64,000 bases of DNA from a virus. A program made the position numbers and the translations under genes. How positions within the stretch are numbered: the stretch's first letter is position 1; every line of letters starts with the position of its first letter. The stretch is taken from the IMG/VR virus record IMGVR_UViG_3300002835_000026. The stretch is one strand, 5' to 3'. Positions 1,244 to 25,254 of this stretch are shown here, piece after piece. The notes below the pieces were generated by a model that searched no databases, was not told the origin of the DNA, and saw nothing but the letters and a program-made list of their open reading frames with translations.

Positions 1244-2170
1244 TTATGATGGGTTAGCGTTACTTAATGTTGTACTTATTGAGTATATTATACCTTGTAC
1301 TTCTGTATTAAACCAAATAGTGGCGGTGCCCGGGGTGTTTGGATTAGTTAATCGTATAGCAAATTTACCACTTGAATCTGTTACAGCATGATTAATTGAA
1401 CCTGAGTTTGCTATAGGTACAATATTACTACCTGAAACTACTAAATAAGTAACAGTTCCTGATGCTTGTTGGGCGGATCCAGTTTCTACAGTACTAGTCC
1501 ACCAATGTATTAATTGTTGTGGTTGTGTTAATGGTGAACTATCTGGGTTTGAAAATGTAGCTGTAATTGCTCTTTGAGCTGTTGTTGAACCACTTACTGC
1601 TAAACTACAACTTACAAGTGCTGATAAACCTGATATACCTGAAAGACCTGAAAGACCTGATAAACCTGAGCGACCTGAGGTACCGGATAAACCTGATATT
1701 CCTGATAAGCCTGAAATACCTGAACGACCGGAGATGCCTGATCCCGCTACTAATGCCCATGAACTTGGTGATTCAGATGGAGAAGCATCTGAATTATTGT
1801 TTAATGCTATATAAGAATTACCGCCTGATGAAACTATATCATTAATTTGATAATTTGTAACACTACTCCAAGCACCTTCCCAAATTAATCCTATACCTGA
1901 TAAGCCTGAGCGACCTGAAATACCACTTATACCAGATACAGTTGGAGTAGCAGCAAATGATGCTGTTAAAGCATATGAAGCTGAAACTGCGTTAGAAGAA
2001 GTAGCATTCAATGTACCATTCATATTTAATGAACCTGTGACAGTTAATGAACCACTTATTGTTATATCATAAGCTACTGTACCTGTTAAGGCATCAATAG
2101 ATTGAGTTATTTGAGCTGCTTGTACAGTTGCGCCAGTTGCTATACTCGCACTAGATAAAGTTAATGCCAT
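1244..2170 (-). CDS. Short fibre/structural protein with Gly-X-Ser repeats and one Trp/Tyr-rich module
   Basis: SGISGLSG repeats flank GLIWEGAWSSVTNYQINDIVSSGGNSYIAL...W, the same module found in the giant fibre. Confidence 0.75.
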   Translation of the reverse strand: MALTLSSASIATGATVQAAQITQSIDALTGTVAYDITISGSLTVTGSLNMNGTLNATSSNAVSASYALTASFAATPTVSGISGISGRSGLSGIGLIWEGAWSSVTNYQINDIVSSGGNSYIALNNNSDASPSESPSSWALVAGSGISGRSGISGLSGISGLSGTSGRSGLSGLSGLSGISGLSALVSCSLAVSGSTTAQRAITATFSNPDSSPLTQPQQLIHWWTSTVETGSAQQASGTVTYLVVSGSNIVPIANSGSINHAVTDSSGKFAIRLTNPNTPGTATIWFNTEVQGIIYSISTTLSNANPS

Positions 2171-7187: not shown

Positions 7188-8036
7188 TTAATTATCATGG
7201 ATATTATTTAATTCTATTACACTATTATTTAAATGGTATTTTTTAATAGATTCACTTGTTGATAAAAATCTTTCAGAAAATCTATCTCCTCGTCTAGGTT
7301 CTATTATAATTTTTTCTCTATTTGGATATAAATCATTAGCTACATCTATCATACTTCTACTATGTCCTGAATTAACTATAAATCGTGATTTATTAGGATA
7401 ATTCATAGTATATATAATTAAACCTATAGCTTCTCCTAATGATATAAAATGTCTTTGGCATGTAGGAGCTACTTTAATTGGAGAATCTAGAGATAATGAA
7501 TTCCATATTTCAAATACATTTCCTGATGATTCAACAACATTAAAAAATCGAGCTATACTTCCTCCATTATTTAATACCATTCGTTCCGCTATTAATTTTG
7601 AAGCTCCGTATACAATTTCAGGATTACAAGATTTACAAGTAGAAGTTAATATAATTTTACAATTAAGAGGCATACAATCTATTAAATTTTTTGTTCCTAT
7701 AGTATTAATAGATAAAGTTTCCCAAGTTTCATGTTCACCTTTAGGAGCATGTTTCGCTCCAGCAATATTAATAATAATATTAGGTTGAAATTTATTTAAT
7801 ATTGTTTTGACTTGATTAAAATCAGTTATATCCATATACTCCATATCTCCTTCTATATCAGTAGCTAAATAAGATACTTTATCTTTATCAAATTTTTTAC
7901 AAAGTGCAGTTCCTATACTTCCATTAGCTCCTGTAATAAGAATTTTTTGTTTTTTATTTTTTAATTTAATATTAAGTAAATCAATATATTGATTTCGTCC
8001 TAATACTTTTTCTACATCATTATAACTTATTTTCAT
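7188..8036 (-). CDS. NAD-dependent nucleotide-sugar dehydratase/epimerase (CapD/Polysacc_synt_2-like)
   Basis: ILITGANGSIG Rossmann motif, AGAKH, YGASK, RFFNVVESSGNV, R.GD. Confidence 0.85.
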   Translation of the reverse strand: MKISYNDVEKVLGRNQYIDLLNIKLKNKKQKILITGANGSIGTALCKKFDKDKVSYLATDIEGDMEYMDITDFNQVKTILNKFQPNIIINIAGAKHAPKGEHETWETLSINTIGTKNLIDCMPLNCKIILTSTCKSCNPEIVYGASKLIAERMVLNNGGSIARFFNVVESSGNVFEIWNSLSLDSPIKVAPTCQRHFISLGEAIGLIIYTMNYPNKSRFIVNSGHSRSMIDVANDLYPNREKIIIEPRRGDRFSERFLSTSESIKKYHLNNSVIELNNIHDN

Positions 8037-8646
8037 CTGTTAAAAAATTAAATTTAATTATTAAATTATTTAAATATTCTTTATTTATATTATTTCTTTC
8101 TAAACCTATAGTATTTTCTTTTAAAAATCTAGATGGAGATCCTATGTAAATATTTCCAGGTTCAATTTTAGAATTTTTAGTTACAATTGTTCCCATTCCT
8201 ATCATAGAATAAGCTCCTATTATTTTAAATTGATGACATATACTTCCTAATCCCATATTTACTCCTTCCATTATGTAACTATGCCCTCCTATTAATACAT
8301 TACAAGATAAATTAACTTTATTTTCTATAATAGAATCATGACCAATATGACTATTTCTTAATATAATAGTATTATTTTTTAATATTGTATTTCTTATTGT
8401 GCCTGCGTTTATAGTTACAAATTCTCTAACTATATTATTATTACCTATAATAACATTAAACGCACTATTAGTAAAATAATCTCTATGTTCTGGTGGTGTA
8501 CCTATAGAACAATAGGCTTCAAATCTATTATTATCTCCTATTATAGTATCTCCTGTAATGTAACAATAAGGACCAATATAATTATTTTCTCCTAAAGTAA
8601 CATTTTCTCCTATAATAGCTGTAGGATGTATTAAATTATTTTTCAT
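8020..8646 (-). CDS. Left-handed beta-helix acyl/acetyltransferase, LpxA-like
   Basis: IHPTAII hexapeptide repeats; IGNNNIVREFVTINAGT, HIGHD, GGH and HQF match LpxA signature positions. Confidence 0.8.
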   Translation of the reverse strand: MKNNLIHPTAIIGENVTLGENNYIGPYCYITGDTIIGDNNRFEAYCSIGTPPEHRDYFTNSAFNVIIGNNNIVREFVTINAGTIRNTILKNNTIILRNSHIGHDSIIENKVNLSCNVLIGGHSYIMEGVNMGLGSICHQFKIIGAYSMIGMGTIVTKNSKIEPGNIYIGSPSRFLKENTIGLERNNINKEYLNNLIIKFNFLTDENKL

Positions 8647-9943
8647 TTATAATTTTTAAAACGTTTTCTAATTTAATTAAATTCATACATTCTTTTCTTT
8701 CTGGTTGTTGTAGGTCCATCCACCATCTTCTATTGTAATAATTTTTACCACAATTTTTTTCAATATATTTCACTCCAGGATGTTTAGCATGGTTATTATA
8801 GAATGGGGTTAAACAAATACCTACATTTGGTTTAACAGAAGAAGCAAAATGATGAAAAAATGTATCTACACTTAACCATAAACTTGATTCATCTATTAAT
8901 CCTGCTAACTCTGCTATTGATTTATCTAAAAATTTACTATCTACTCCACCAGGAGAAAATGACATTGGGAATTGATTATCATTACTTGAACCTACTTGTA
9001 TAACATGATATCCTAATTTTTTTAACTCAAATATTAAATTAAACCACCTAACTTCAACCCAGTCTTTATTTGAATCTTGATTTTGGATTCTAGCTGCTGA
9101 AGGGCAGATTAATACTAATGGTTTACCGGTTGTGTTTTCAAATTTAATTTTAGGACCTGTATAATTTAATATATCTTGAGATTCTCGATTTTCTCTATAC
9201 ATTTTAAAAAATGCTTCTATAATTGTAGGAGAATTATGAGCTGATCCATAAGAATAAACAAATTTTTTATATCCTCCAAATAATTCATCATTCCAAGATA
9301 TAAAACCTTTAATATTAATATGTTCTAAAGCAAATGGATAAATACAAGATACATAACAATCTTTACCTATTTTTTCTAATAATGGGTACGCCATAACATG
9401 ATCTCCTAATCCACCATCAACATGTATTATTCTTTCATAAAATAATGGATTAATTATTTTTTTATTATATCTTTCTGAGTCTGGTGTATTATCAGATGTA
9501 AAAGGGTATTTAGTTTTTTGAGTAATTAAATCTGCTATAAACCACCTTATAGATTGATATTTGGTATCATGATTAAGGTATAATAAATCACTAGTTTTTG
9601 CTAATAAATAAGTATTATTCAATGTATCCCACTCTTTAACGCCAAAATAACCATCATTTTCATCTATCAATAAACAATACTCTGTTTCAATGTTATATAT
9701 AAGTTCTATAGTAGATTGAAGTATATTACTTAAAGTAGGGTTAATAAAATAACTATGATAAGCTAAAGTTGTTAATTTATTTAGTAAATTTTGATTAGTC
9801 CAAGGAGTATATCCCTTACAATTAATTTGTAAAGTTTTAATTTGGGATTTAATTGGATCATTATGTAATTTATCTAATAAAGATATTAGTTTTTCTTCAT
9901 TTTCTGTATGAATTATAACTGTTATTTCTTTTTGTAACTCCAT
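8636..9943 (-). CDS. GT9 (heptosyltransferase-like) glycosyltransferase, paralog 1
   Basis: GGLGDHVMAYP, K.W...W, VIQVG, LAGLI...SVDTFFHHFASS. Confidence 0.8.
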   Translation of the reverse strand: MELQKEITVIIHTENEEKLISLLDKLHNDPIKSQIKTLQINCKGYTPWTNQNLLNKLTTLAYHSYFINPTLSNILQSTIELIYNIETEYCLLIDENDGYFGVKEWDTLNNTYLLAKTSDLLYLNHDTKYQSIRWFIADLITQKTKYPFTSDNTPDSERYNKKIINPLFYERIIHVDGGLGDHVMAYPLLEKIGKDCYVSCIYPFALEHINIKGFISWNDELFGGYKKFVYSYGSAHNSPTIIEAFFKMYRENRESQDILNYTGPKIKFENTTGKPLVLICPSAARIQNQDSNKDWVEVRWFNLIFELKKLGYHVIQVGSSNDNQFPMSFSPGGVDSKFLDKSIAELAGLIDESSLWLSVDTFFHHFASSVKPNVGICLTPFYNNHAKHPGVKYIEKNCGKNYYNRRWWMDLQQPERKECMNLIKLENVLKIINEK

Positions 9944-9944
9944 T

Positions 9945-11279
9945 TTAGCTATTAGTTTTTAGTTTTATAGCTTTTAATATATCATCTACTTGGATTAGTT
10001 CTAAACTTTCTTTTCTTTCTGGTTGTTTAAAGTCAAATAACCATCTTCTATTATGATAGTTTTTACCACAATCTTTTTCTATATAAGTTACTTTAGGATG
10101 TTTTACATAATCATTATAAAAAGGAATTAAACAAATTCCTGTCTCTGGTTTTATTGAAGCTGCAAATGGATGTAAAAAAGTATCTACTGTTATCCATAAA
10201 CTGGCTTCTTCAATTAATCCTGCTAATTCAGGAATAGATTTATCTAAAAATTTTTCATCTACACCAGCTTGACAATAAGGAGAATTAGAATCAAATGATA
10301 ATGGGATTTGGTCATCTTTATGTGAACCGGTTTGAATAACATGATAACCTAATTTTTTTAATTCAAATATTAAATTAAACCATCTAACATCAACCCAATT
10401 TTTATTAGATTCAAATCCTTGTACTCGTGCTGCTGTGTTGCCTACTAAAACTATAGGTTTGCCTGATATATTATTGTATTTAATTTTTGGGCCGTTATAT
10501 TTCATAACGTCTGTTTTTTCTTTTGGTATATTATACATTTCAAATAATGCATTTACTAAATTGGGTAAATCATTTACTAAACCATAATCATAAATAAATC
10601 TATGATATCCTCCAAATAAATCATCATTCCAATCAATTAAACCCTTAGTGTCAATATGATCTAAAACAAATGGGTATATACTACTAACAAAACACTTTTT
10701 TCCTATTTTTTCTAATAGTGGATATGCCATAACATGGTCACCTAATCCACCATGTACATGAATTATTCGTTCATAAAATAAAGGATGATCTATTTTTTTA
10801 AAATATCGTTCTGAATCTGAGGTGTTATCTAGATTAAATTTATGCCTTGTTTTTTGACTAATTAAATCTGCTATAAACCATGTTATATGTTGGTAATTAG
10901 TGTCTTGATTACAGTGTAATAAATCCGTAGTTTTCGCTAATAAATAGGTATTATTAAGTATATCCCATTCTTTAACGTTAAAACATGTATTAGATTCATC
11001 TATTATTAAAACATAATTAGTTTTAATTTTATAAATAAGATCTATAAGAGATAATACAGGTGATGATGAGGTTGGTTGTATACTATAAAAAGAACTAGTA
11101 AGTGTTGATATTTTATCTAGTATAGTTGGATTAGTCCAAGGAGTAATACCTTTACAATTAACTTGTAAAGTATTAAATTGAGACTTTAAGGGATGTTGAT
11201 GTAATTGATTTAATAAAGTTAATAACTTAGTTTCATTCTCTGTATGAATGATAACTGTTATTTTATCATTTTTGGTCAT
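9945..11279 (-). CDS. GT9 (heptosyltransferase-like) glycosyltransferase, paralog 2
   Basis: GGLGDHVMAYP, KNWVDVRW, TVDTFLHPFAAS; collinear with the adjacent paralog. Confidence 0.8.
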   Translation of the reverse strand: MTKNDKITVIIHTENETKLLTLLNQLHQHPLKSQFNTLQVNCKGITPWTNPTILDKISTLTSSFYSIQPTSSSPVLSLIDLIYKIKTNYVLIIDESNTCFNVKEWDILNNTYLLAKTTDLLHCNQDTNYQHITWFIADLISQKTRHKFNLDNTSDSERYFKKIDHPLFYERIIHVHGGLGDHVMAYPLLEKIGKKCFVSSIYPFVLDHIDTKGLIDWNDDLFGGYHRFIYDYGLVNDLPNLVNALFEMYNIPKEKTDVMKYNGPKIKYNNISGKPIVLVGNTAARVQGFESNKNWVDVRWFNLIFELKKLGYHVIQTGSHKDDQIPLSFDSNSPYCQAGVDEKFLDKSIPELAGLIEEASLWITVDTFLHPFAASIKPETGICLIPFYNDYVKHPKVTYIEKDCGKNYHNRRWLFDFKQPERKESLELIQVDDILKAIKLKTNS

Positions 11280-11337: not shown

Positions 11338-12057
11338 TTAATTAAATTCAAATCTCCATTTAAATCCACCACCAGTTGATCCTGTAAATGAAGCAGTTGG
11401 TTCAGGACCTTGGGCCGCGTAATTAAGATTATAAGTAGTACCGTCGAGGATTGGGTTTATATTAAATATAGTTTGTTCTCCATTACCATCATTTGCATCA
11501 CAGAGTCCACGCATACTTCCAGTTAATACACTTCTATAATCACAATAAAAATCTAAAGTCCAATAACAATTTTGAACATTAGGTGTTTGATCTGTAGATA
11601 ATAATAGTGGACCAATAATATTAAGTCCTGGACCATTAAGATCTGCTTGGTAATCTGAAACTAAAGTAGTTGTTGTAAGTGAATCTGTAATTTTAAAAGT
11701 TACATCAGTTATAGTATCTGATCCTCCAAATAATACATCAATATCATATTGTACACTGTAATTAGGGAAAACACCTGGATCATTACCTTCACAGGTTCCT
11801 AGTAAATCATAAAATTTTCCAAGAGATTGAGTAGTATTTTGTTGTCTAGTACCACATAATCTATTAGCATAATTATAAGATCCACTAGAACCCCAACCTG
11901 TATAAGGATATGTATTATTACCATATGGTCCTTTAGGCCATGATTCTTTCATAAAAACACTAGCTGACACGTTAGTACCAGGAGTTAATCCTAAATTTGC
12001 TGAGTCAAGTACATCATTATATGAAATTGTACTTCCTGAAGATGGCGTTACTCCCAT
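11338..12057 (-). CDS. Fibre-associated protein (possible tip/adhesin)
   Basis: Directly downstream of the fibre gene; N-terminus MGVTPSSGSTISYNDV resembles small proteins that follow S74-containing fibres; rich in G/S/T/Y. Confidence 0.55.
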   Translation of the reverse strand: MGVTPSSGSTISYNDVLDSANLGLTPGTNVSASVFMKESWPKGPYGNNTYPYTGWGSSGSYNYANRLCGTRQQNTTQSLGKFYDLLGTCEGNDPGVFPNYSVQYDIDVLFGGSDTITDVTFKITDSLTTTTLVSDYQADLNGPGLNIIGPLLLSTDQTPNVQNCYWTLDFYCDYRSVLTGSMRGLCDANDGNGEQTIFNINPILDGTTYNLNYAAQGPEPTASFTGSTGGGFKWRFEFN

Positions 12058-12059
12058 AA

Positions 12060-15000
12060 CTATTTATTTTTAAGTTGTTCTTCTAAATTATTTACTTTAT
12101 CATTTAATTCTTGAATAGCTGCTACTAATAATGGTACTATTTTTTCGTATTGTACTGTTAAGTAATTTTCACCTGATTTACTAGTTGTATTTCCGTCATT
12201 ATCTAAAATATTAATATCAAAAGGAGCTGGTTTTACTACTTCAGGTAATACTTTTTGTAAATCCTGAGCTATAACACCAACTTGTCTTTCTGGGTGTTTA
12301 ATTTGCATTAAATTATCAGCTAATTCATTTTGGTAATAAGTTACTGCTCTTAATGAATTAACTTTACTTAAAGCATTATTAATTGGTTCTAGTCCTTTTT
12401 TAAGTCTTTCATCTGAATAGTAAGCTACTACATCACCTGCCGCGTAAAGAGCTCCAGATGAATATATATAATATCCACCTGACGTTTCAATATATCCTGA
12501 TACACTTAATGTTGTACCATTAAATGTCATGTTTTGTTCAGCATTTATTGTAGAAGAATTTACTGATGTTATAACACGGTTATCAGCAGCACCAGTATAA
12601 GATGTTATACCAGCACTTGCTCCTGATGTACCTGAAGCACCTGATGCACCACTTGTTCCTGAAGCACCTGAAGTTCCTGATGTACCTGATGCACCACTTG
12701 TTCCTGAAGCACCTGAAGTTCCTGATAAACCTGAAGTACCGCTTGCACCTGAAGCACCTGATGTACCTGATGCACCACTTGTTCCTGAAGCACCTGAAGT
12801 TCCTGATGTACCTGATGCACCACTTGTTCCTGAAGCACCTGAAGTTCCTGATAAACCTGAAGTACCGCTTGCACCTGAAGCACCTGATGTACCTGATGCA
12901 CCACTTGTTCCTGAAGCACCTGAAGTTCCTGATGTACCTGATGCACCACTTGTTCCTGAAGCACCTGAAGTTCCTGATAAACCTGAAGTACCGCTTGCAC
13001 CTGAAGCACCTGATGTACCTGATGTACCGCTTGCTCCTGATGTTCCTGAAGCACCTGATAAACCTGAAGTACCGCTTGCACCTGAAGCACCTGATGTACC
13101 TGATGTACCGCTTGCTCCTGATGTTCCTGAAGCACCTGATAAACCTGAAGTACCACTAGCTCCTGAAGCTCCACTTGTACCTGACGCACCTGATGTACCT
13201 GACGCACCTGATGTACCTGATGTTCCTGAAGCACCTGATGTTCCGCTTGCTCCTGATATACCTGATCCGGCTACTAAACTCCAATATGTTCCGTTTGTAG
13301 GGACTATGTTTTCACTTCCTAATATGTTTATATAAGAACTTCCATTGTATGAAACAACATTGTTTGGAATGTATGAAGTTCCAGCATTGTAAGCACCTAA
13401 CCAAATTAAACCTATACCTGAACGACCTGATGTACCTGAGGCACCTGATGCACCACTTGTACCTGAAGCACCTGATGTACCTGATGTACCTGAAGCACCA
13501 CTTGTTCCTGAAGCACCTGATGTACCACTTAAACCTGATGTTCCGCTTGCGCCTGAAGCTCCTGATGTACCTGATGCTCCTGATGTTCCTGATGCTCCTG
13601 AAGTTCCACTTAAACCTGAAATTCCTGATGTACCTGATGTTCCACTAGCACCTGAAGTTCCTGAAGCACCACTTGCCCCTGATGTTCCTGAAGCACCACT
13701 TGTACCTGAAGCACCTGAAGTTCCTGATAAACCTGAAATACCTGATGTACCTGAAGTTCCACTAGCACCTGAAGTACCACTTGTTCCTGATGCGCCACTT
13801 GTACCTGAAGCTCCTGAAGTACCGCTTGCACCTGATATACCAGACCCAGCTACTAATTGCCAATATGTTCCATTTGTAGGGACAACTCCTTCGCTTTGTA
13901 ATATGTTTATATAAGAACTTCCATTGTATGAAACAACATTGTTTGGAATATAAGTTGTAGCGCCATTATAAGCACCTAACCAAATTAAACCTATACCTGA
14001 GCGACCTGATGTTCCTGAGGCGCCTGAAGCACCTGATGTACCTGAAGCACCACTTGTACCTGAAGCACCGCTTGTACCTGAAGCACCTGATAAACCTGAG
14101 ATACCTGAGCGACCTGATGTTCCTGAAGCACCACTTGCACCTGAAGTTCCTGAAGCACCTGATGTACCTGATAAACCTGAAGTGCCACTTGCACCTGAAG
14201 CCCCTGATGTACCGCTTGCACCTGATGTTCCTGAAGCACCTGATAAACCTGATGTTCCTGAGGCGCCACTAGCTCCACTTGTTCCTGAAGCACCTGATGT
14301 ACCTGAAGCACCTGATAAACCTGATGTTCCTGAGGCGCCACTAGCTCCACTTGTTCCTGAAGCACCTGATGTACCTGAAGCACCTGATAAACCTGATGTT
14401 CCTGAGGCGCCTGATGCACCACTAGTTCCTGAAGCTCCACTTGTTCCTGAAGCACCTGATAAACCTGATGTTCCTGAGGCGCCACTAGCTCCACTTGTTC
14501 CTGATGCACCACTTGTTCCTGATGCGCCTGATGTACCTGAAGCACCTGATGTTCCGCTTGCTCCTGATATACCGGACCCAGCTACTAACTGCCAATATGT
14601 TGGGTTTGTAGGGACTATGTTTTCACTTCCTAATATGTTTATATAAGAACTTCCATTGTATGAAACAACATTGTTTGGAATGTATGAAGTTCCAGCATTG
14701 TAAGCACCTAACCAAATTAAGCCAATGCCTGAACGACCTGATGTTCCTGAAGCACCTGAAGCTCCACTTGTACCTGAAGCACCTGATGTACCTGATGCTC
14801 CTGATGTACCACTTAAACCTGATGTTCCGCTTGCGCCTGAAGCTCCTGATGTACCTGATGCTCCTGATGTTCCTGATGCTCCTGAAGTTCCTGATGCTCC
14901 TGAAGTTCCACTTAAACCTGAAATTCCTGATGTACCTGATGTTCCACTAGCACCTGAAGTTCCTGAAGCACCTGATGTACCACTTGCACCTGATAAACCT

Positions 15001-18000
15001 GAAATACCTGAACGACCTGATGTTCCTGAAGCTCCTGAAGCACCACTTAAACCTGAAGTTCCTGAAGCACCACTTGCACCTGATGTTCCTGATGCTCCAC
15101 TTGTACCTGAAGCTCCTGATGTACCTGATAAACCTGAAATACCTGATGTACCTGAAGTTCCACTTGCTCCAGAAGCACCACTTGTTCCTGATGCGCCACT
15201 TGTACCTGAAGCTCCTGAAGTACCGCTTGCACCTGATATACCGGACCCAGCTACTAAACTCCAATATGTTGGGTTTGTAGGAACAGTTGCTTCACTTTGT
15301 AATATGTTTATATAAGTACTTCCATTATATGAAACAACATTATTAGGAATATAAGTTGTAGCACCACTATAAGCACCTAACCAAATTAAACCTATACCTG
15401 AGCGACCTGATGTACCTGAAGCACCTGAAGCACCACTTGTTCCTGAAGCACCTGAAGTTCCTGATGCACCTGATGTACCACTTGCACCTGAAGTTCCACT
15501 TAAACCTGAAATTCCTGATGTACCTGATGTTCCACTAGCACCTGAAGCACCACTTGTACCTGAAGCACCTGATGTACCTGATGCGCCACTTAGTCCTGAG
15601 ATACCTGAGTTTCCTGATGTACCGCTTGCGCCTGAAGCACCTGAAGTACCGCTTGCGCCTGAAGTACCTGAAGCACCACTTAGGCCTGAAATGCCTGAGT
15701 TTCCTGATGTACCGCTTGCGCCTGAAGCTCCACTTGTACCTGAAGCACCTGAAATACCTGATAAACCACTTATACCTGAACGTCCTGAAATACCTGATCC
15801 TGCCACTAATGACCATGAACTTGGTGTATCTGATGGAGCTGCATCATTATTATTATTTAAAGCTATATAAGAACTTCCAAGGTATGATACTAAGTCATTT
15901 GTTTGATAATTTGTAGCACTACTCCAAGAACCTTCCCAAATTAGACCTATACCTGAAAGACCAGATATACCACTTAGACCTGAGATACCTGAGTTGCCGC
16001 TTAAGCCTGAAATACCTGAGTTACCTGATGTACCTGAAGCACCACTTAAACCTGATATACCTGAGTTACCTGATGTACCTGAGGCGCCACTTAGACCTGA
16101 GATACCTGAGTTGCCGCTTAAGCCTGAAATACCTGAGTTACCTGAAGCGCCTGATGTACCACTTAGACCTGAAATGCCACTTAAACCTGAGATGCCTGAG
16201 TTACCTGATGTACCTGAAATGCCTGATAAACCTGAAATACCGCTTAAACCTGATATACCTGAGCGACCTGAGATGCCTGATCCTGCTACTAAACTCCAAT
16301 ATGTTGGTGATTCGTTAGGTGATTGGTCTAAACTATTTTGTATCGCTATATATGTGTTTCCAAGGTATGATACTAAATCATTAGTTTGATAGTTTGTAGC
16401 ACTACTCCAAGAACCTTTCCAAATTAGACCTATACCTGAAAGACCTGAAATTCCGCTTAAACCTGATATACCACTTAGACCTGAAATGCCTGAGCGACCT
16501 GAAATACCGCTTAGACCTGAAATTCCTGAAATACCAGAAATACCACTTAAACCAGATATACCTAAAATTCCTGATAAACCTGAAATACCTGAGCGACCTG
16601 AGATGCCTGAAGCCGCTACTAGTTCCCAATATGTTGCATTTGTAGGTAAATTATTTAAGTTGCTATTTGTAATTGATATATAAGAACTTCCATTATATGA
16701 AACTAAATCATTAATGTTATAAGTTACTTCAAAATCCCATCCTCCTGCTTTCCAATATAAACCTATACCTGATAAACCTGAGCGACCTGAAGTACCAGAT
16801 AAACCTGATATTCCTGATAAGCCTGATATACCACTTAGGCCTGAGGTACCTGATAAACCTGAAATACCTGAGTTACCTGATAAACCTGAGATGCCACTTA
16901 GGCCTGAGATGCCTGAATTACCACTTAAGCCTGATATACCTGAAAAACCTGAAAGACCACTAACTGCTATAATAGACCAATATGTTGGTTGAGCTGATGG
17001 AGTAGCGCTAATATTACTATCTTGTAAAGAAATATAAGAACTTCCTTGATAATAAACTATATCATTTATATTATATAAAGTAAATGCATCCCAAGTACCT
17101 TCCCAAATTAAACCTATACCTGATAAACCTGAAATACCTGAGCGACCTGATGTTCCTGAAGCACCTGAAATGCCTGAAATGCCACTTAAACCTGATAAAC
17201 CTGATATACCACTTAGACCAGAAATACCTGATATGCCACTTAATCCTGAAATACCTGAGCGACCTGAATCTCCACTTATACCTGAAAGTCCTGAATTACC
17301 ACTTAGTCCTGATATACCTGAGATGCCTGAAAGACCAGATATACCTGAACGACCTGAGTTTCCATCAGTACCACTTAATCCTGAAATACCTGAGTTACCA
17401 CTTAAACCTGAAATACCTGATAAGCCTGATATGCCACTTATACCTGATAAACCAGATAAACCTGAAATTCCACTTATACCTGATAAACCTGAAATACCTG
17501 ATAAGCCACTTATACCTGAAATTCCTGATAATCCACTTATACCTGAAATACCGGATATACCACTTAATCCTGAAATGCCGCTTAAACCTGATATTCCTGA
17601 AATACCACTTAAACCTGAAATTCCTGATATACCACTTAAACCACTTACACCTGAAATACCTGATAAACCTGATTCACCGCTTAAACCTGATATTCCTGAA
17701 ATACCACTTAAACCTGAAATACCGCTTATACCTGATAAACCTGATAGACCAGATGTACCGCTTAAACCAGATGTGCCTGAGAGTCCTGAAATACCAGAAA
17801 GACCTGATATACCTGATATACCTGATATACCACTTAGACCTGAGGTACCTGAAATACCTGATAAACCACTTTCACCACTTAATCCTGAAATGCCACTTAT
17901 ACCTGATAAACCAGATAGACCTGAATCGCCACTTAAACCTGAAATGCCACTTAATCCGCTTATACCTGAAAGTCCTGATAAACCTGATTCACCACTTAAT

Positions 18001-21000
18001 CCACTTATACCTGATAAACCAGATGTACCTGAAAGACCTGATGTACCTGATAAACCACTGATACCTGATGTACCACTTAAGCCTGAGGTACCACTTAAAC
18101 CTGAAAGACCAGATTCACCACTTAAGCCTGAGGTACCACTTAAACCACTTATACCTAAATTACCTGATAAGCCTGAAATACCACTTAAACCTGAAATTCC
18201 TGATAAACCTGATAAACCTGATTCACCACTTAAGCCTGATATTCCTGAAAGTCCTGAGATGCCACTTAGTCCTGAAATACCGCTTATACCTAATAATCCT
18301 GAAATGCCTGATGTACCTAAAAGTCCTGATATTCCTGACTCACCGCTTAATCCTGAGATGCCACTTAATCCACTTATGCCTGAAGTACCTGATAAACCTG
18401 AAATACCTGATGTACCGCTTAAACCACTTATACCTGATAAACCTGATAAACCACTTTCCCCTGATAATCCTGAGATGCCACTTGTACCTGACAAGCCTGA
18501 AATTCCGCTTAATCCTGATAAGCCACTTTCGCCTGATAAACCTGAAATACCTGAAGTGCCACTTAAACCTGATGTACCTGATAAGCCTGAAAGTCCTGAG
18601 ATGCCTGAAGTACCACTTAAACCTAAAATACCACTTATGCCTGATATGCCACTTAATCCACTTATACCTGATGTACCGCTAAGGCCTGATAAGCCACTTT
18701 CGCCTGAAAGACCTGATAAGCCTGAAAGTCCTGATATACCTGATGTACCTGATAAACCTGAAATTCCGCTTGTACCTAAAAGTCCTGATAAGCCACTTTC
18801 GCCTGATAATCCTGAAATACCTGATGTACCACTTAATCCACTTATGCCGCTTAAACCTGAAATACCTGATGTACCACTTAATCCACTTATGCCGCTTAAA
18901 CCTGAAATACCTGAGTCACCGTTTAGACCTGAAGTACCTGATAAACCACTAATTCCACTTAAACCTGATGTACCACTTAATCCTGAAATGCCACTTATAC
19001 CTGATAAACCTGAAATACCTGAAAGTCCTAAGGTACCACTTAATCCACTTATACCTGAAGTTCCTAATAAACCTGAAATTCCTAATATACCGCTAAGACC
19101 TGATAATCCACTTTCGCCTGATAATCCTAAAATACCACTTATACCTGAAATACCTGATACACCACTTAAACCTGAAATACCGGAATCACCATTTAAACCT
19201 GATATACCGCTTAAACCACTTATACCTGAGATGCCACTTAGGCCTGAAATTCCTGAAAGACCTAATATTCCTGATTCACCACTTAATCCTGAGATGCCTG
19301 ATAAACCAGAAACACCTGATAGACCTGATAAACCGCTTATACCTGATAGACCTGAAGTACCACTTAAACCTGAAAGTCCTGAGTCACCGTTTAAACCTGA
19401 TATGCCTGAAAGACCAGATACACCATTTAATCCGCTTACACCTGATATTCCTGATAAGCCTGATATACCGCTTGTACCTGATAAGCCAGAAATGCCTGAA
19501 GTACCTTCTAAACCTGATATGCCTGAAAAACCTGAAATACCGCTTAATCCTAAAATACCTGAGATGCCTGAGATGCCTGATAAACCACTTAATCCAGATA
19601 AGCCACTTTCACCATTTAAACCTGAAATACCACTTAAACCTAAAAGTCCTGAAATACCTGATGTACCGCTTAAACCTGATAAACCTGATTCACCACTTAA
19701 GCCTGAAATACCACTTAAACCTGAAAATCCTGATGTACCGCTAAGACCTGATATACCTAAAAGTCCTGAAATACCTGATGTACCGCTTAAACCTGATAAA
19801 CCTGATTCACCACTTAAGCCTGAAATACCGCTTGTGCCTGATAAACCTAAAATACCTGATAAACCACTTTCACCACTTAAACCTGATAAACCTAAGATAC
19901 CTGAAATACCATTTAAACCAGAAATACCGCTTGTTCCTAACAATCCTGAAACCCCACTTAAACCTGAAAGACCTGATGTTCCTGAAAGACCTGATATACC
20001 ATCTATACCAGAAAATCCTGATAAACCGCTTAAACCTGAGGTACCTGACATACCTGAAAGTCCTGATATACCTGATGTACTTATACCACTTAAACCAGAT
20101 AAACCGGAAAGTCCTGAAGTTCCATCTATGCCTGAAAGACCTGATATACCGCTTAAACCTGATGTACCTAATAAACCTGAAAGTCCTGATGAGCCGCTTA
20201 ATCCTGAAAGACCTGAGTCTCCATTTAATCCTAAAATACCACTTATACCACTTAAACCTGAAATTCCTGAGTCACCGTTTAGACCTAAAATTCCTGATAA
20301 ACCTGAAATACCAGACAATCCTAAAATACCAGATAGGCCTGAAGTACCACTTAGACCAGAAATACCTGAATCTCCAATATTACCATTTGTACCACTTAAT
20401 CCTGAAATACCTGATGTGCCATTTAAACCTGAAATACCTGAATTTCCAATTAAACCAGATATACCTGAAACTCCTTCTAAACCTGAAATACCTGAAGTAC
20501 CATTTGTACCTGATAAGCCACTTATACCTGACTGACCTAATAAACCTGAAGTGCCTTCTAAACCTGAAATTCCTGAAGTACCGTTTGTACCATTAGTACC
20601 ACTTAAACCAGAAATTCCTGAATTACCTAAAAGTCCTGAAATACCTGAAGCTCCTTCTAAACCTGAGATGCCTGAAATACCATTTATACCTGAAATACCT
20701 TCTAAACCTGATATTCCTGAAGTTCCATTTGTACCATTTGTACCTGAAAGTCCTGAAATACCACTTAATCCTGAAGTACCTAAGATACCACTTAATCCTG
20801 AGATGCCTGAGTCACCATTTAGACCTAACAAACCTGATAAACCACTTATACCTGAAGTTCCTAATGTACCTGATAAACCTGAAAGTCCTGATGTACCTTC
20901 AAGACCTGAAAGACCGGATGTACCATTTGTTCCATTTGTTCCTGATAAACCAGATAAACCTGAAGTTCCTAATGTACCTGATAAACCTGATAAACCTGAT

Positions 21001-22628
21001 GTACCATTTAATCCACTTAAACCTGATGTACCTTCAAGACCTGAAAGACCTGAAGTTCCGTTTGTACCGGATAAACCACTTAGACCTGAAGTTCCAGTGC
21101 CACTTAAGCCTGATAAACCACTTGTGCCTTCTAAACCACTTAGACCTGAAGTACCATTTGTACCACTTGTTCCTGATAAACCTGAGAGACCTGATGTACC
21201 AGTACCACTTAATCCACTTAGACCAGATATACCTTCTAAACCTGAAAGTCCTGAGGTACCATTTGTTCCTGATAAACCTGAAAGTCCTGAGGTACCATTT
21301 GTACCATTAGTTCCTGAGAAACCACTTATACCAGATAAACCACTTATACCTTCTAAGCCACTTATACCTGATGTACCAATTGTACCACTTAATCCACTTA
21401 TACCTGAAGTTCCAGTTCCACTAAGACCTGAAAGACCAGATGTACCTTCTAAACCAGATAAACCTGATAAGCCTGATAAGCCTGATAAGCCTGATAAACC
21501 AGTTCCTGAAAGACCAGATAAACCTGAGGTTCCAGTACCACTAAGACCTGAAAGTCCTGAAAGTCCTGTTCCACTAAGACCAGAAATTCCTGATGTACCT
21601 TCTAAACCTGATAAACCTGAAATTCCGTTTATACCTGATAAACCGCTTAAACCAGAAGTGCCAGTACCACTTAAACCTGAAAGTCCTGATGTACCTAATA
21701 TGCCACTTAGACCTGATGTACCTTCAAGACCTGAAAGACCGGATGTACCATTTGTTCCTGATAAACCTGAAAGTCCTGAAGTACTAGTACCACTAAGACC
21801 TGAAAGACCAGATGTACCTTCTAAGCCTGAAAGACCAGATGTACCATTAGTACCATTAGTACCTGAAAGACCTGAAAGTCCTGATATACCTGTACCACTT
21901 AGGCCTGATAAACCACTTAAGCCTTCTAAACCTGAGAGTCCTGAGGTACCATTTGTACCATTAGTTCCTGATAAACCACTTAGACCTGATGTACCAGCTC
22001 CTGACAAACCAGATAAACCTGAAGTTCCAGTACCACTAAGACCTGAAAGTCCTGATAAACCTTCTAAACCAGAAAGACCTGAAGTTCCATTAGTTCCTGA
22101 AAGACCGCTCAAACCAGAAGTTCCTGTTCCACTTAAACCACTTAGACCTGAAGTTCCTGTACCACTTAAACCAGATAAACCACTTATACCTTCTAAACCT
22201 GATAAACCTGAGGTACCATTAGTTCCTGATAAACCGCTTAATCCTGAGGTGCCAGTTCCACTTAATCCTGATAAACCTGAAGTGCCAGTACCACTTAAAC
22301 CTGATAAACCTTCTAAACCTGAAAGTCCTGATGTACCATTTATTCCTGATAAACCACTTATACCAGATGTTCCAGCGCCACTTAGTCCTGAAATACCTGA
22401 TGTACCTGTTCCTGATAAACCTGAAATACCTGAGGTGCCAGTACCACTTAAGCCTGAAATACCTGAGGTGCCAGTACCACTTAAACCTGAAAGACCTGAT
22501 AAACCTGAAAGTCCAGATGTACCAATTCCACTACTACCTCCTGAAGTAGGTACTTCAAAAGAAGCTATAGATACTTGATCTAAAAATCGTACATTGTTTC
22601 TTGGTATGGAGTTATTGATTCTGGCCAT
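12060..22628 (-). CDS. Giant fibre protein (3522 aa): Gly-X-Ser repeats, 8 Trp/Tyr-rich CBM-like modules, C-terminal Peptidase S74 intramolecular chaperone
   Basis: Nearly continuous (G-[LITA]-S)n; modules GLIW.G.W/Y...Y..ND/N.V.Y.GSSYI...P...YW; C-terminal [20 protein letters not shown]...[31 protein letters not shown]. Confidence 0.9.
12620..22530 (-). repeat. 9-nt-periodic coding repeat (Gly-X-Ser), including near-perfect 126-bp and 72-bp tandem units
   Basis: cctga/ccact recurs every 9 nt on the + strand; a 126-bp unit starts at 12721, 12847 and 12973; a 72-bp unit repeats around 14240-14480. Confidence 0.95.
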
Positions 22629-23484
22629 ATTGTATTTCGTTTGTTGGGTTTGTTATTGTTGATTCTAAATTTATAATTATTTTACTCTTACTTGAAAATT
22701 TCTTGATAGAGTTTAAATCTTTTTGTAATACTTCTGGAACTATATAACCATATACTTTAATATTAAAAGTACTTCTAACTAATCGTTCAGCGTCATTTTG
22801 TAATTCTGTTACTGTATTAAATGTATCAATACGAGTTTGGAATTGAAATTGTTCTGGGTTACCCCAATACGCATCTGAAGCATATTCAATTGCTTCTACT
22901 ATTTTATTTAATTGTTCTACATAGTAAGTAAATACTACACAACTATAAGTTAATGTTAAGTAATCAGGTACTACTGAAGCATAATATGTAGTAGTTGGTA
23001 TTCTGTTAGTTAAAACATTAAAATTACTATATATATTACTTGGAGAGTATTGTTTTTCTGTTACTGTATAGTTGTTAGGTCTATTAGCATCTAATTTATT
23101 AGCTACAGTCCTATTTTTTTCTATACTATCTCTTTTAAACATAATAAGTGGAGCCATAATAGCACCGTTTACATCTCTATAATAACCATCCTTTTGATAT
23201 GATTTCCATTTTTCAGGTGAACCATATATAACAGGAACTTCTATTCTTTCTTCATTTTGCACTACAAAAGGTTTAATAACATTTTGAAAATAATACATAA
23301 TAGCTCCATCAATATCTTGAAGACTAATACTAAATGGTTTAGTATTATCATTTCTAAAAGAAGTTTGTGTAGCTCTATTAGGATTATTAGACTTATTAGG
23401 GTTACCTCTTTCAACATCAAAAGGTACTTGTTGATCTACAAGTATCTCTTTTTGTGTTTTAGGTATAGGTATTCTTCCAGCCAT
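22612..23484 (-). CDS. Tail completion / sheath stabiliser (T4 gp15-like)
   Basis: [26 protein letters not shown]; position after the neck genes. Confidence 0.7.
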
Positions 23485-24033: not shown

Positions 24034-25254
24034 TTATGCTATATAAATTACCATTGGTACTTGATTTATTTCTGTTACACGTGCTGCTGATTCAGCTGCT
24101 CTTCTTTCAAGCAATGCTTGACGTGAAGTTTGATCAAAATATTCTCTTAATCTTAAAATTAAAGCATCTTTAGTAGCTGTAGCTGAAGATAATAAATCTT
24201 GTTGATTTAAAGTTACTTCAGCATTAGGAATAGGAACAGTACTATATTTTCCTCTAACATATCCTAATATTTCTTTAGTTAATGCTAAAGTGTATTCATA
24301 TATCCAACTTCTACCTACTGAATTTAAAGCATTATAATTTGGATTAGTATAAGGTACATTTGATGTGTTAGTAATTTTATTTGTACCATCTCCAAACGCT
24401 GAATCTAATCTTTCTTGTAATGAAACATATTCAAAATTTAAATACATTCCGTAATCTAAATTATTATCCATTTCTTCATTAAAAAATCCAGTTCCAGGAA
24501 CTGGAAACACTGAGATTACATTATTTGTAATTTCAAAAGTATAATTAGATAAGGTTATAGTGTTTTGCATCTCAATAGCTTGAATAGTTTGAGCTGTAAA
24601 ACTTGTAGGCATCATTAAATAATTTGTATAACCCATACCTAAACCATAAGCACCAGCCGCTGGGACTCCGCCTAAACCTCCTGCCATTGTTCCTAAGAAA
24701 GGAGCAAACATTTGAGATACAGCTGGAGGTGGTTGGTAAAATACTCTTTTAATTTCAATTCCACCTACAATACCTTGAGACTCAGCCCAAGCTTTTAAAT
24801 CATATCTTTGTACTCCTGGAATTAAAGTTAATCTACCTTTTCTCCAAGTAACGTTACCTCCTGAACCTGCTTCTTCTCCATATTGTTCAGATAATCTAAC
24901 AATATTAGCCATTGAAGGAGTAATTAATGCATTATCAGCATCAATAGAAGTTGAAGCTCCTTCAAATGTAAGATAATTATCTCTAGTTAAAAAAGCATAT
25001 AATTCATTTCCATATGTAGTAACTGCTTCTTCAAAAGCAGCATATATGTTAATATCTTGAAGTTCAATATCCATAATAGGATATCCTAATCTACGAGTAA
25101 CAAACATAGCTACACTATCAGCGTCTGTTTTAAATTGAGTCTCATTATCATAAAATCCAAACGGAGTAGGAGGAATTCCTGATGAAGGAGTATTATAATA
25201 AGATGCTGATACTTGAGCAAATGAACTAGAACCAGGCCAAATAGGTATATTCAT
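24034..25254 (-). CDS. Neck/head-tail adaptor protein (T4 gp13-like)
   Basis: RRLGYPIMDIEL, WIYEYTLALTKEILGYVRGKY..PIPNAEVTLN. Confidence 0.75.
   Translation of the reverse strand: MNIPIWPGSSSFAQVSASYYNTPSSGIPPTPFGFYDNETQFKTDADSVAMFVTRRLGYPIMDIELQDINIYAAFEEAVTTYGNELYAFLTRDNYLTFEGASTSIDADNALITPSMANIVRLSEQYGEEAGSGGNVTWRKGRLTLIPGVQRYDLKAWAESQGIVGGIEIKRVFYQPPPAVSQMFAPFLGTMAGGLGGVPAAGAYGLGMGYTNYLMMPTSFTAQTIQAIEMQNTITLSNYTFEITNNVISVFPVPGTGFFNEEMDNNLDYGMYLNFEYVSLQERLDSAFGDGTNKITNTSNVPYTNPNYNALNSVGRSWIYEYTLALTKEILGYVRGKYSTVPIPNAEVTLNQQDLLSSATATKDALILRLREYFDQTSRQALLERRAAESAARVTEINQVPMVIYIA

What the first reader, a model, noticed from the sequence alone, without database searches (positions are those of the whole stretch)
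12060..22628. 3522-aa fibre with ~1800 residues of near-continuous Gly-X-Ser repeat
Seen: the region ~22530 to ~17120 is about 600 triplets with no globular insert (only GT-dipeptide register breaks in the N-terminal part). Eight modules spaced by more repeats follow, then an S74 chaperone with the canonical SD-x-R-L-K cleavage motif. Known: S74 chaperones assemble trimers, and collagen rises ~0.29 nm per residue. Inference: as a triple helix the first stretch alone would be ~0.5 um and the total ~0.8 um, longer than a typical myovirus particle. The alternative is a compact polyglycine-II bundle like snow-flea antifreeze protein, which could bind ice or surfaces.
Basis: partly seen in the sequence, partly recalled or inferred. 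Interest (0 to 1): 0.75.

Follow-up and report, generated by a model that had tools for sequence, protein, structure and literature searches.

The report
Giant serine-rich collagen-like phage fibre
An uncultured water phage related to Flavobacterium phage immuto encodes a real 3522-residue fibre made of about 960 proline-free glycine-X-serine triplets, eight small sugar-binding beads and a self-cleaving folding domain. It belongs to a large, undescribed family of phage fibres that would be up to about a micrometre long and are probably sugar-coated.

Summary
Window 12060-22628 (-) is one 3522-aa ORF.
- Residues 36-1836 are about 600 Gly-X-Ser triplets with no globular insert. The only interruptions are 20 one-residue register breaks, two G4G breaks and one GG.
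- Eight CBM5/12 modules follow, then a Peptidase_S74 chaperone (YYS|DERLKK).

The gene lies between a T4 gp15-like tail terminator and the tail sheath of an immuto-like myophage.

It is not a one-off. In 62 of 80 related viral contigs the same slot holds a giant proline-free Gly-X-Ser ORF with a shared N-terminal VRFLDQV motif. Two relatives have single unbroken runs of 1406 and 1249 triplets.

The repeats contain no Pro and no Lys, and no KGE/KGD clamps, so none of the known triple-helix stabilisers is present. Sugar-transfer genes follow the fibre in the window and in distant relatives. In those relatives they include Aah/TibC-type protein-serine O-heptosyltransferases.

Best reading: a trimeric, probably O-glycosylated collagen-type virion thread of about 0.8 µm contour length. 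The triple helix itself is unproven.

A compact polyglycine-II bundle is disfavoured: glycine is exactly one residue in three, X is bulky, there is no turn periodicity and no Cys.

The scan met this fibre type before on other DNA (e1-5373725, e1-5824323).

The parts
22524..22628 (-). N-terminal 35 residues with the family-wide M-A-x-(x)-VRFLDQV motif. Presumed virion-docking peptide. Most relatives carry a domain of about 125 aa here.
   Evidence: motif shared by relatives whose gp15 is 61-98% identical
17121..22523 (-). Zone 1: residues 36-1836, about 600 Gly-X-Ser triplets, X mostly Leu/Ile. 20 G-x-G breaks in the first 510 residues, then runs of 113 and 329 triplets.
   Evidence: Pfam Collagen E 8e-96 on the first 876 aa
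12615..17120 (-). Zone 2: residues 1837-3338. Eight CBM5/12 beads separated by Gly-(Thr/Ala/Ile/Leu)-Ser spacers of 57-216 residues.
16959..17120 (-). CBM5/12 module 1 (residues 1837-1890)
16608..16769 (-). CBM5/12 module 2 (residues 1954-2007)
16278..16436 (-). CBM5/12 module 3 (residues 2065-2117)
15795..15953 (-). CBM5/12 module 4 (residues 2226-2278)
15243..15398 (-). CBM5/12 module 5 (residues 2411-2462)
14574..14729 (-). CBM5/12 module 6 (residues 2634-2685)
13842..13997 (-). CBM5/12 module 7 (residues 2878-2929)
13263..13418 (-). CBM5/12 module 8 (residues 3071-3122)
12417..12614 (-). Small distal tip (residues 3339-3404). It would be the mature C-terminus after self-cleavage.
   Evidence: together with the chaperone it matches PHROG tail-fibre families (E 5e-31)
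12063..12416 (-). Peptidase_S74 intramolecular chaperone (residues 3405-3522). Predicted cleavage before Ser3405 in YYS-D-E-R-L-K.
   Evidence: (PDB 6f45 phage S16 long tail fibre distal subunit, 7dc3 MYRF)
22612..23484 (-). Upstream gene: tail terminator with the T4 gp15 fold
   Evidence: AF2 model pLDDT 61; Foldseek 4huh E 1.6e-7, 9mkb E 2.3e-7
24034..25254 (-). Neck protein, T4 gp13 homologue
   Evidence: 9mkb/9lu4 gp13, E 1.4e-5
11338..12057 (-). 239-aa Cys- and Gly-rich ORF starting 2 nt after the fibre stop. No family, and no homologue in the related loci.
8636..11279 (-). Two paralogous GT9-like glycosyltransferases (444 and 435 aa)
8020..8646 (-). Hexapeptide-repeat acyl/acetyltransferase (LpxA/NeuD-like)
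7188..8036 (-). PseB-like sugar-nucleotide 4,6-dehydratase/epimerase
3030..7178 (-). 1382-aa four-domain enzyme: GT17 + methyltransferase + GT2 + GT4
1244..2170 (-). Second, small fibre protein (308 aa) that carries one CBM5/12 + Gly-X-Ser module like modules 3 and 4 of the giant fibre
1..918 (-). C-terminal part of the tail sheath gene, marking the end of the variable island
   Evidence: 40% identity, E 5e-58, to the immuto tail sheath CDS listed

Best explanation
The ORF is a real structural gene for a virion fibre of an uncultured T4-type myophage. The closest cultured relative is Flavobacterium phage vB_FspM_immuto.

The proposed assembly and function are all inferred:
- Three chains are brought into register at the C-terminus by the S74 intramolecular chaperone.
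- The Gly-X-Ser repeats then zip towards the N-terminus into a collagen-type triple helix. With no proline there is no isomerisation step.
- The chaperone cuts itself off before Ser3405.
- The result is a flexible thread of about 0.8 µm contour length, held on the virion by the conserved N-terminal VRFLDQV peptide.
- The distal half carries 8 x 3 CBM5/12 beads and ends in a small tip.

The repeats lack proline, lysine and charge pairs, yet Ser at the Y position is kept across the family. The helix is therefore most likely stabilised and made soluble by O-glycosylation of those serines, carried out by the sugar-transfer genes that travel with the fibre.

Proposed function: long-range, multivalent capture of polysaccharide, either chitin-like particles or the host envelope. 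This would raise the chance of meeting a host. The swappable distal ends would set specificity.
For: Real gene: one frame carries 3522 codons and three Pfam families in order, on the same strand as all neighbours.

Selection on the repeat: Gly is kept at 329 of 329 positions although the DNA is degenerate. Ser is written with both codon families, TCN 206 and AGY 97 in that run.

Structural context: gp13 neck, gp15 terminator, fibre, glyco island, sheath. The tip plus chaperone matches phage tail-fibre PHROGs and PDB 6f45.

Family: 428 viral contigs hold the gp15 homologue. In 62 of the 80 fetched, the next gene is a giant proline-free Gly-X-Ser ORF. Full-length relatives are 4507, 4182 and 3616 aa, with runs of 1406 and 1249 triplets, and all three end in S74.

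Modular exchange typical of receptor-binding fibres: the N-terminal motif is conserved while the C-termini are swapped.

Glycosylation:
- Sugar-transfer genes follow the fibre in the window, in close relatives and in distant relatives.
- The distant relatives encode Aah/TibC-type protein-serine O-heptosyltransferases: TIGR04414 at 206.1 bits (cut-off 200), plus two more at 194 bits.
- Relatives without the fibre have gp15 and sheath only 1.3-2.8 kb apart, with no hit to any of the window's island enzymes in the gap.
- Galactosylation turns the random-coil peptide (Gly-Pro-Thr)10 into a triple helix (PMC11923368).

No higher-order periodicity: autocorrelation is at most 0.15, which fits a rod and not a folded bundle.
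Against: - No experiment and no trimer model exist. The single-chain AF2 model had pLDDT 35.
- The repeats have no Pro and no Lys, and 0 KGE/KGD, so an unmodified helix may be unstable.
- Leu or Ile at every third residue of zone 1 would be solvent-exposed in a triple helix.
- The window's own GT9-like genes do not match the Aah/TibC model (no hit at E 0.01; hhalign probability 1.8%).
- In pelagimyophages, similar glycosyltransferase islands are read as host-LPS modifiers (PMC7029224).
- The virion attachment point is unknown.
- This lineage keeps only about 30 N-terminal residues, against about 125 in most relatives.
- No cultured phage in the phage collection carries the N-terminal domain, so no micrograph can be consulted.
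- Close relatives are only about 65% identical across the repeat DNA, so they cannot confirm this particular assembly.
Confidence: 0.6

Rival explanations
1. The three chains are joined only at the tip and beads. The Gly-X-Ser stretches stay as a flexible, heavily O-glycosylated, mucin-like tether or brush and do not form a stable triple helix.
For: The repeats have no Pro, no Lys and no salt-bridge triplets. Unglycosylated (Gly-Pro-Thr)10 is a random coil (PMC11923368). AF2 gives no structure. Ser and Thr make up 35% of residues. Glycosylation genes lie next to the fibre.
Against: A disordered linker has no need for Gly at exactly every third residue. Yet Gly is kept over 329 triplets here, and over 1249 and 1406 triplets in two relatives, despite degenerate DNA. 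Length changes keep the triplet frame.
Confidence: 0.2
2. The repeats fold back into a compact polyglycine-II bundle like the snow-flea antifreeze protein or the phage S16 gp38 adhesin, and bind ice or surfaces.
For: Period-3 glycine fits PPII/PGII helices. A PGII domain is known in one phage adhesin (PMC12227593). Zone 2 has Thr/Ala at X.
Against: Known bundles have 6-14 short helices (three turns, about 9 residues, in the bundle that paper models) packed 4.7 Å apart and rich in Gly (PMC12227593). Here Gly is exactly one third, with 1 extra Gly in 987 residues. X is Leu/Ile in 77% of the long run. There is no turn periodicity and no Cys. Fibre length varies from 1800 to over 4500 aa among relatives. 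The C-terminal trimerising chaperone argues for a parallel three-chain rod.
Confidence: 0.03
3. The length is inflated, or otherwise wrong, because a short-read assembler mishandled the repeat.
For: Exact repeats of 101-260 nt occur in codons 2637-3330. Many related contigs end inside the repeat. Close relatives differ two-fold in fibre length.
Against: The longest exact repeat in the first 1840 codons is 75 nt. Only 1-18% of 27-mers there recur. The frame stays open for 10.5 kb and ends in proper domains. Independent assemblies give complete ORFs of 3616-4507 aa of the same build.
Confidence: 0.07
4. The neighbouring sugar genes do not act on the fibre. Instead they remodel host LPS or capsule, or phage DNA, as proposed for host-recognition islands of pelagimyophages.
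For: PMC7029224 describes tail-fibre islands with many glycosyltransferases and reads them as O-antigen modifiers. The window's GT9-like genes hit LPS heptosyltransferase models weakly and miss the TibC model. The acyltransferase is LpxA-like.
Against: Relatives carry enzymes that match or nearly match the curated Aah/TibC protein-serine O-heptosyltransferase model, and phages have no autotransporter substrate. No hit to any of the window's island enzymes lies in the short gp15-sheath gap of relatives that lack the fibre. Ser at Y is the one side chain conserved across the family.
Confidence: 0.35

Closest known systems
Phage and prophage collagen-like tail-fibre proteins (Smith et al. 1998 'Bacteriophage collagen', cited in PMC1079782; P-SSM2 orf028; E. 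coli prophage EPclA, PMC3368898)
   Same: Gly-X-Y repeats in a phage fibre gene, flanked by non-collagen trimerising domains. Ser and Thr are common in X/Y of cyanophage examples.
   Different: About 960 triplets against tens to a few hundred in those proteins. No proline or charged pairs at all, whereas EPclA relies on Pro and about 22% charged residues (PMC11923368). Y is 91% Ser.
S74 intramolecular-chaperone fibres and spikes (K1F endosialidase, T5 pb1, phage S16 gp37 PDB 6f45, MYRF 7dc3)
   Same: C-terminal PF13884 domain with the S-D-x-R-x-K motif after a trimeric stalk. At least 290 proteins of 1937-6164 aa share this end.
   Different: Of the 120 closest giant S74 proteins, 119 have essentially no Gly-X-Y repeat (at most 1% of residues) and one has 10%. 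The known stalks are triple beta-helices or beta-rich rods.
BclA of Bacillus anthracis and Riftia cuticle collagen (glycosylated Thr at Y)
   Same: A hydroxy amino acid at Y takes the place of hydroxyproline. In those systems O-glycans sit on the collagen-like region (PMC11923368, PMC6222408).
   Different: Those have Gly-Pro-Thr. Here there is no Pro and the residue is Ser, not Thr. Glycosylation is only inferred here.
Aah/TibC heptosylation of AIDA-I/TibA autotransporter repeats (NCBIfam TIGR04414)
   Same: A GT9-related enzyme that puts heptose on many serines of a repetitive adhesin. Relatives of this phage encode matching enzymes beside the fibre.
   Different: The substrate would be a collagen-like repeat, not a beta-helix passenger. 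The window's own GT9-like genes do not match the model.
T4 fibritin (wac) whiskers
   Same: A trimeric accessory fibre encoded next to the neck genes gp13-gp15.
   Different: Fibritin is a coiled coil with a foldon, 487 aa and about 50 nm (from memory). There is no sequence relation, and attachment at the neck is not shown here.
Snow-flea antifreeze protein and other PGII bundles
   Same: Period-3 glycine and PPII-type backbone.
   Different: This fails the bundle's Gly richness, short-helix-plus-turn pattern and compact size (PMC12227593).

Membership tests
Collagen triple-helix repeat (PF01391) | Runs of at least 6 Gly-X-Y triplets and an HMM score above the gathering threshold | tested here: met
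   457.6 bits against 27.2 on the C-terminal 1706 aa, and 314 bits on the first 876 aa. Longest run is 329 triplets.
Collagen triple-helix repeat (PF01391) | Known stabilisers: Pro/Hyp in X/Y, or Lys-Gly-Glu/Asp salt-bridge triplets | tested here: not met
   All 25 Pro and all 13 Lys lie outside the repeats. There are 0 KGE/KGD/RGE/RGD triplets. Stabiliser criteria come from PMC11923368.
Collagen triple-helix repeat (PF01391) | Three chains actually form a triple helix (CD 225 nm, cooperative melting, protease resistance) | not testable with these tools
   Only single-chain AF2 was available, and it gave pLDDT 35.
Peptidase_S74 intramolecular chaperone (PF13884) | HMM above cut-off at the extreme C-terminus of a fibre | tested here: met
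   55.7 bits against 22. PDB relatives 6f45 and 7dc3.
Peptidase_S74 intramolecular chaperone (PF13884) | Ser-Lys dyad motif S-D-x-R-x-K | tested here: met
   YYS(3405)DERLK(3410)KG.
Peptidase_S74 intramolecular chaperone (PF13884) | Autocleavage after trimer formation | not testable with these tools
   Needs expression and SDS-PAGE or mass spectrometry.
CBM5/12 (PF02839) | HMM match with the conserved aromatic pattern W...Y..(N/G)D.V.Y.G..Y...P...W | tested here: met
   8 stretches, 96.8 bits summed against 26.2. A single module scores 23.8, just below the cut-off. The aromatic pattern is visible in all eight.
CBM5/12 (PF02839) | Binds chitin or another insoluble polysaccharide | not testable with these tools
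   Needs a pull-down with chitin or cellulose beads.
Polyglycine-II helical bundle (snow-flea AFP, S16 gp38) | Gly well above one third, so that helices can pack 4.7 Å apart | tested here: not met
   Gly appears once per triplet, with 1 extra Gly in 987 residues. X is Leu/Ile in 254 of 329 triplets. Criterion from PMC12227593.
Polyglycine-II helical bundle (snow-flea AFP, S16 gp38) | Short helices (three turns, about 9 residues in the modelled bundle) joined by regular turns, 6-14 per domain | tested here: not met
   No higher-order periodicity: autocorrelation at most 0.15, and no dominant Fourier period. Unbroken runs of 329, 1249 and 1406 triplets.
Aah/TibC protein-serine O-heptosyltransferase (TIGR04414), for the neighbouring GT9-like genes | Score at or above the curated cut-off of 200 bits | tested here: not met
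   The window's 435- and 444-aa proteins give no hit at E 0.01, and hhalign against the relatives' enzymes gives probability 1.8%. In relatives the feature is met: L086 762-aa protein at 206.1 bits; two others at 194 bits, just under the cut-off.
T4 fibritin-type neck whisker | Coiled-coil stalk with a C-terminal foldon, attached to the gp13/gp14 collar | tested here: not met
   The stalk is Gly-X-Y and the end is S74. Only the gene neighbourhood resembles fibritin. The attachment site cannot be tested.

The most novel reading that the evidence does not exclude
These phages make the longest uninterrupted collagen-type triple helices known: 329 triplets here, and up to 1406 triplets or about 1.2 µm in relatives. 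They do so with a stabilising strategy not yet described, with no proline, no hydroxyproline and no salt bridges. Instead, phage-encoded enzymes (TibC-like in relatives) glycosylate Ser at every Y position. This would be an exception to the proposed universal salt-bridge folding code of collagens, and a new form of virion glycosylation.
Probability: 0.35. Interest if true: 0.8.

Novelty: new variant of a known kind. Interest (0 to 1): 0.62.

Why it matters
Collagen biophysics: a natural Gly-X-Ser sequence hundreds to more than a thousand triplets long, with no imino acids and no charge pairs, tests what a triple helix really needs. A 2025 survey (PMC11923368) proposed Lys-Glu/Asp clamps as a shared folding code across life and viruses, and this family has none. 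It could also offer a hydroxylase-free, proline-free template for recombinant collagen.

Phage biology: a thread several times longer than the virion, carrying 24 carbohydrate-binding beads, would change how far a phage can reach for a host or a particle in dilute water. Sugar-transfer genes beside the fibre point to virion protein glycosylation in aquatic phages.

I found no description of this fibre family in the papers I searched. No cultured phage in the collection carries its N-terminal domain.

Tried and rejected
- Single-chain AF2 of residues 1640-1895 (repeat plus first bead): pLDDT 35, no fold. It is uninformative for either the triple helix or the bundle.
- PDB sequence searches gave nothing for the 290-aa neighbour (single sequence and 24-row profile), the 182-aa ORF and both GT9-like proteins. 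Only the fold search placed the 290-aa protein as gp15.
- Pairwise BLASTP and hhalign between the window's GT9-like proteins and the relatives' TibC-like domains matched only a 41-column GT9 motif.
- PHROG, Pfam and NCBIfam gave nothing for the 239-aa ORF. PHROG gave nothing for the relatives' 125-aa N-terminal domain.
- The phage collection gave no match to the window at high identity, to the relatives' N-terminal domain, or to the bead region.
- I tried to validate the assembly by colinearity with close relatives (gp15 95-98% identical). The repeat DNA aligns at only about 65% in any register, so it is hypervariable and gives no confirmation.
- No whole genome is held for the window.
- The Atlas look-up of the 239-aa ORF scored at most 0.81, which is chance level. 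One lower-ranked cluster had Gp38_N in 12% of its members; this is a lead only.
- I considered reading the fibre as a neck whisker because it sits next to gp13-gp15. I did not adopt this, because the same interval in immuto holds ordinary tail-fibre and structural genes.


Full report
**1. Observation**

Window 12060-22628 (-) is a single ATG-started ORF of 3522 codons. It overlaps the stop of the upstream gene by 17 nt.
- Glycine (1028) and serine (942) make up 56% of residues.
- Residues 36-1836 are about 600 Gly-X-Ser triplets without any globular insert.
- The only interruptions are 20 G-x-G one-residue deletions (all before residue 511), two G4G breaks and one GG.
- After residue 852 there are 329 triplets in a row, with Gly at every first position and one stray Gly elsewhere.
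- In runs of at least five triplets, Y is Ser in 837 of 923 triplets. X is Leu, Thr, Ile or Ala.
- All 25 prolines and all 13 lysines lie outside the repeats. No KGE, KGD, RGE or RGD triplet exists.

Eight modules of 52-54 residues follow, spaced by 57-192 repeat residues, with 216 more after the last. Pfam reads them as CBM_5_12: 8 stretches, E 7e-28.

The last 118 residues are a Peptidase_S74 domain (E 6e-15) with YYS-D-E-R-L-K. PDB relatives are the phage S16 long tail fibre distal subunit and the MYRF chaperone domain.

Zone 1 is 1801 x 0.286 nm = 515 nm, and all 2881 repeat residues give about 824 nm.

**2. Is the sequence trustworthy?**

The DNA repeat is degenerate, with TRF matches of 60-80%.
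- In the first 1840 codons only 1-18% of 27-mers recur, and the longest exact repeat is 75 nt. Ordinary reads can place that part.
- The last third has exact repeats of 101-260 nt, including a 126-nt tandem unit. Its copy number could be off by a few units.
- Ser is written with both codon families, and Gly with three codons. The period-3 pattern is therefore kept by selection on the protein, not by recent DNA copying alone.
- The long ORFs on the opposite strand (for example 17170-20535 +) are by-products of the repeat.

**3. Context**

The window is a phage structural region on one strand:
- primase, exonuclease, terminase, portal and major capsid protein;
- PhoH;
- a T4 gp13 neck homologue;
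- a 182-aa ORF;
- a 290-aa protein whose model (pLDDT 61) matches the T4 gp15 tail terminator (Foldseek E 1.6e-7);
- the fibre, then a 239-aa orphan;
- two GT9-like paralogues, a hexapeptide acyltransferase and a PseB-like dehydratase;
- a 1382-aa GT17 + methyltransferase + GT2 + GT4 enzyme;
- two small ORFs and a 308-aa second fibre carrying one bead-plus-repeat module;
- the tail sheath.

The nearest cultured phage is Flavobacterium phage vB_FspM_immuto, at about 72% nucleotide identity over the capsid region and 51% amino-acid identity for gp15. In immuto the gp15-to-sheath interval holds ordinary tail-fibre and structural genes, with no collagen giant and no annotated glycosyltransferase.

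The interval therefore behaves like the host-recognition cluster described for pelagimyophages and cyanomyophages (PMC7029224).

**4. A family, not a singleton**

The gp15 homologue occurs on 428 viral contigs.
- Among the 80 fetched, 62 have a giant proline-free Gly-X-Ser/Thr ORF downstream, usually starting within 200 nt.
- Three relatives could be read in full. They are 4507 aa with one unbroken run of 1406 triplets, 4182 aa with 1249 triplets, and 3616 aa. All three end in S74.
- As triple helices, the first two would be about 1.2 and 1.07 µm long.
- Nearly all members begin M-A-x-VRFLDQV. Most then have a domain of about 125 aa, while the window's lineage goes into repeat after about 30 residues.
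- C-termini are swapped: some members have S74 with different tips, and others have unrelated globular ends. This is the modular pattern of receptor-binding fibres.
- Across the family X varies: Leu/Ile here, Ser/Thr in the micron-long relatives. Gly and Y = Ser stay.
- Close relatives (gp15 95-98% identical, sheath 95%) have fibre DNA only about 65% identical, island enzymes 57-80% identical, and fibre lengths from 1800 to 3616 aa. The island is hypervariable between conserved flanks.

Among other databases:
- Giant S74-ended proteins are common: at least 290 of 1937-6164 aa. Of the 120 closest, 119 have essentially no Gly-X-Y repeat (at most 1% of residues) and one has 10%.
- Proline-free Gly-X-Ser stretches of 40-85 triplets are common in metagenome proteins. 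So are collagen-plus-CBM5/12 "beads on a string" proteins.
- The parts are therefore known. The scale and purity of the repeat are what stand out.

**5. How it most likely works**

Shown here: the domain order, the motifs, the family and the gene neighbourhood. Everything in the proposed assembly and function below is inferred.
- The S74 domain trimerises the C-termini.
- The repeats zip into a collagen-type helix towards the N-terminus.
- The chaperone cleaves itself off before Ser3405.
- The N-terminal peptide docks on the virion.
- The beads and tip bind polysaccharide.

Strict period-3 glycine over hundreds to more than a thousand triplets, with no longer period (autocorrelation at most 0.15), fits a rod in which only the Gly face is buried.

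The difficulty is stability. The 2025 survey of 58,470 collagen domains (58,002 non-human and 468 human) finds Lys-Glu/Asp clamps enriched in all domains of life and in viruses. It also notes that (Gly-Pro-Thr)10 is a random coil until its threonines are galactosylated (PMC11923368). This fibre has neither imino acids nor charges.

The conserved Y-position serine and the neighbouring enzymes suggest the answer.
- In two distant relatives the interval between fibre and sheath encodes a GT4 + GT9 fusion, FkbM methyltransferases, a hexapeptide transferase and a sugar-nucleotidyl transferase fused to a phosphatase.
- The GT9 halves match the curated Aah/TibC protein-serine O-heptosyltransferase model at 206 bits (cut-off 200) and 194 bits. 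A separate 297-aa ORF in one of the two relatives also scores 194.
- Phages have no autotransporter substrate, so the serine-rich fibre is the obvious acceptor.
- The window has two GT9-like genes in the equivalent place, but they do not match that model. For this phage, glycosylation is inferred from position and analogy only.
- In relatives that lack the fibre, gp15 and sheath lie 1.3-2.8 kb apart, and no hit to any of the window's island enzymes lies between them.

**6. Rivals**

- A glycosylated but non-helical tether is the main rival (0.2). It explains the missing stabilisers but not the perfect glycine register.
- The polyglycine-II bundle (0.03) fails on glycine content, bulky X, absence of turns, absence of Cys, and the two-fold-plus length variation (PMC12227593).
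- Assembly inflation (0.07) can affect only the last third.
- The sugar genes may serve host-envelope remodelling instead (0.35 for that sub-claim; PMC7029224).

**7. Function**

CBM5/12 modules bind chitin and related polysaccharides in characterised enzymes (family knowledge). Twenty-four such beads on the distal 0.3 µm of a flexible thread would give multivalent, long-range adhesion to chitinous particles or to host surface glycans.

Relatives without beads carry other tips, so the thread is the conserved device and the binding parts are exchangeable. Where it attaches is open. The neck neighbourhood is suggestive only.

**8. Novelty and verdict**

Collagen-like phage fibres and S74 chaperones are established. 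New here is a conserved family of proline-free, charge-free Gly-X-Ser fibres of up to micron contour length, linked to protein-glycosylation genes.

I found no paper describing this and no cultured member.

The scan has met the type before on other DNA. Notes e1-5373725 and e1-5824323 reached a similar reading, including TibC-like neighbours. I found that same link independently, before reading them.

Rating: new variant of a known kind, interest 0.62.

Noticed in passing
window 1244-2170 (-): A 308-aa second fibre protein carries one CBM5/12 module flanked by SGRSG/Gly-X-Ser repeat, closely resembling modules 3 and 4 of the giant fibre. It matches a PHROG tail-fibre family (phrog_5073, E 2e-18). 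This suggests module exchange between the two genes.
   Followed up: partly
window 3030-7178 (-): A 1382-aa single polypeptide joins GT17, a methyltransferase (Methyltransf_24/CmcI-like), GT2 and GT4 domains. That is an unusually large multi-enzyme for a phage.
   Followed up: partly
window 11338-12057 (-): A 239-aa Cys-, Gly- and aromatic-rich ORF starts 2 nt after the fibre stop. It has no family in Pfam, PHROG or NCBIfam and no homologue in the related loci. The Atlas gives only chance-level leads, one cluster of which has Gp38_N in 12% of members. It could be a tip adhesin or an assembly factor.
   Followed up: partly
L088 (G004:C1:19500-34200) and L089 (G001:C1:36000-49700): Relatives encode fibres of 4507 and 4182 aa, with single uninterrupted runs of 1406 and 1249 Gly-(Ser/Thr)-Ser triplets. 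That is far longer than the 330-triplet animal fibrillar collagen helix.
   Followed up: partly
L086 8634-10922 and 7744-8637; L087 13736-16018: Phage-encoded Aah/TibC-type protein-serine O-heptosyltransferase domains (206, 194 and 194 bits against a cut-off of 200). Two of them are fused to a GT4 domain.
   Followed up: partly
L087 10140-11978 (-): A 612-aa fusion of a sugar-1-phosphate nucleotidyltransferase and a capsule-type phosphatase sits in the same island. It may make the nucleotide-sugar donor.
   Followed up: no
L007-L010, L001 (immuto gene 214): In some relatives the gp15-like tail terminator carries an extra C-terminal extension of about 130-170 aa. In two of them (L008, L009/L010) the collagen-like fibre lies 2-3 kb further downstream, with a long N-terminal domain that lacks the VRFLDQV motif. 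L007 ends before that point, and immuto has no collagen-like fibre.
   Followed up: no
window 17170-20535 (+) and other + strand ORFs inside the gene: ORFs up to 1121 aa on the opposite strand are frame artefacts of the stop-free repeat, not genes.
   Followed up: yes
window 25735-26448 (-): A PhoH-like gene sits between the capsid and neck genes, as in immuto and in cyanophages.
   Followed up: no
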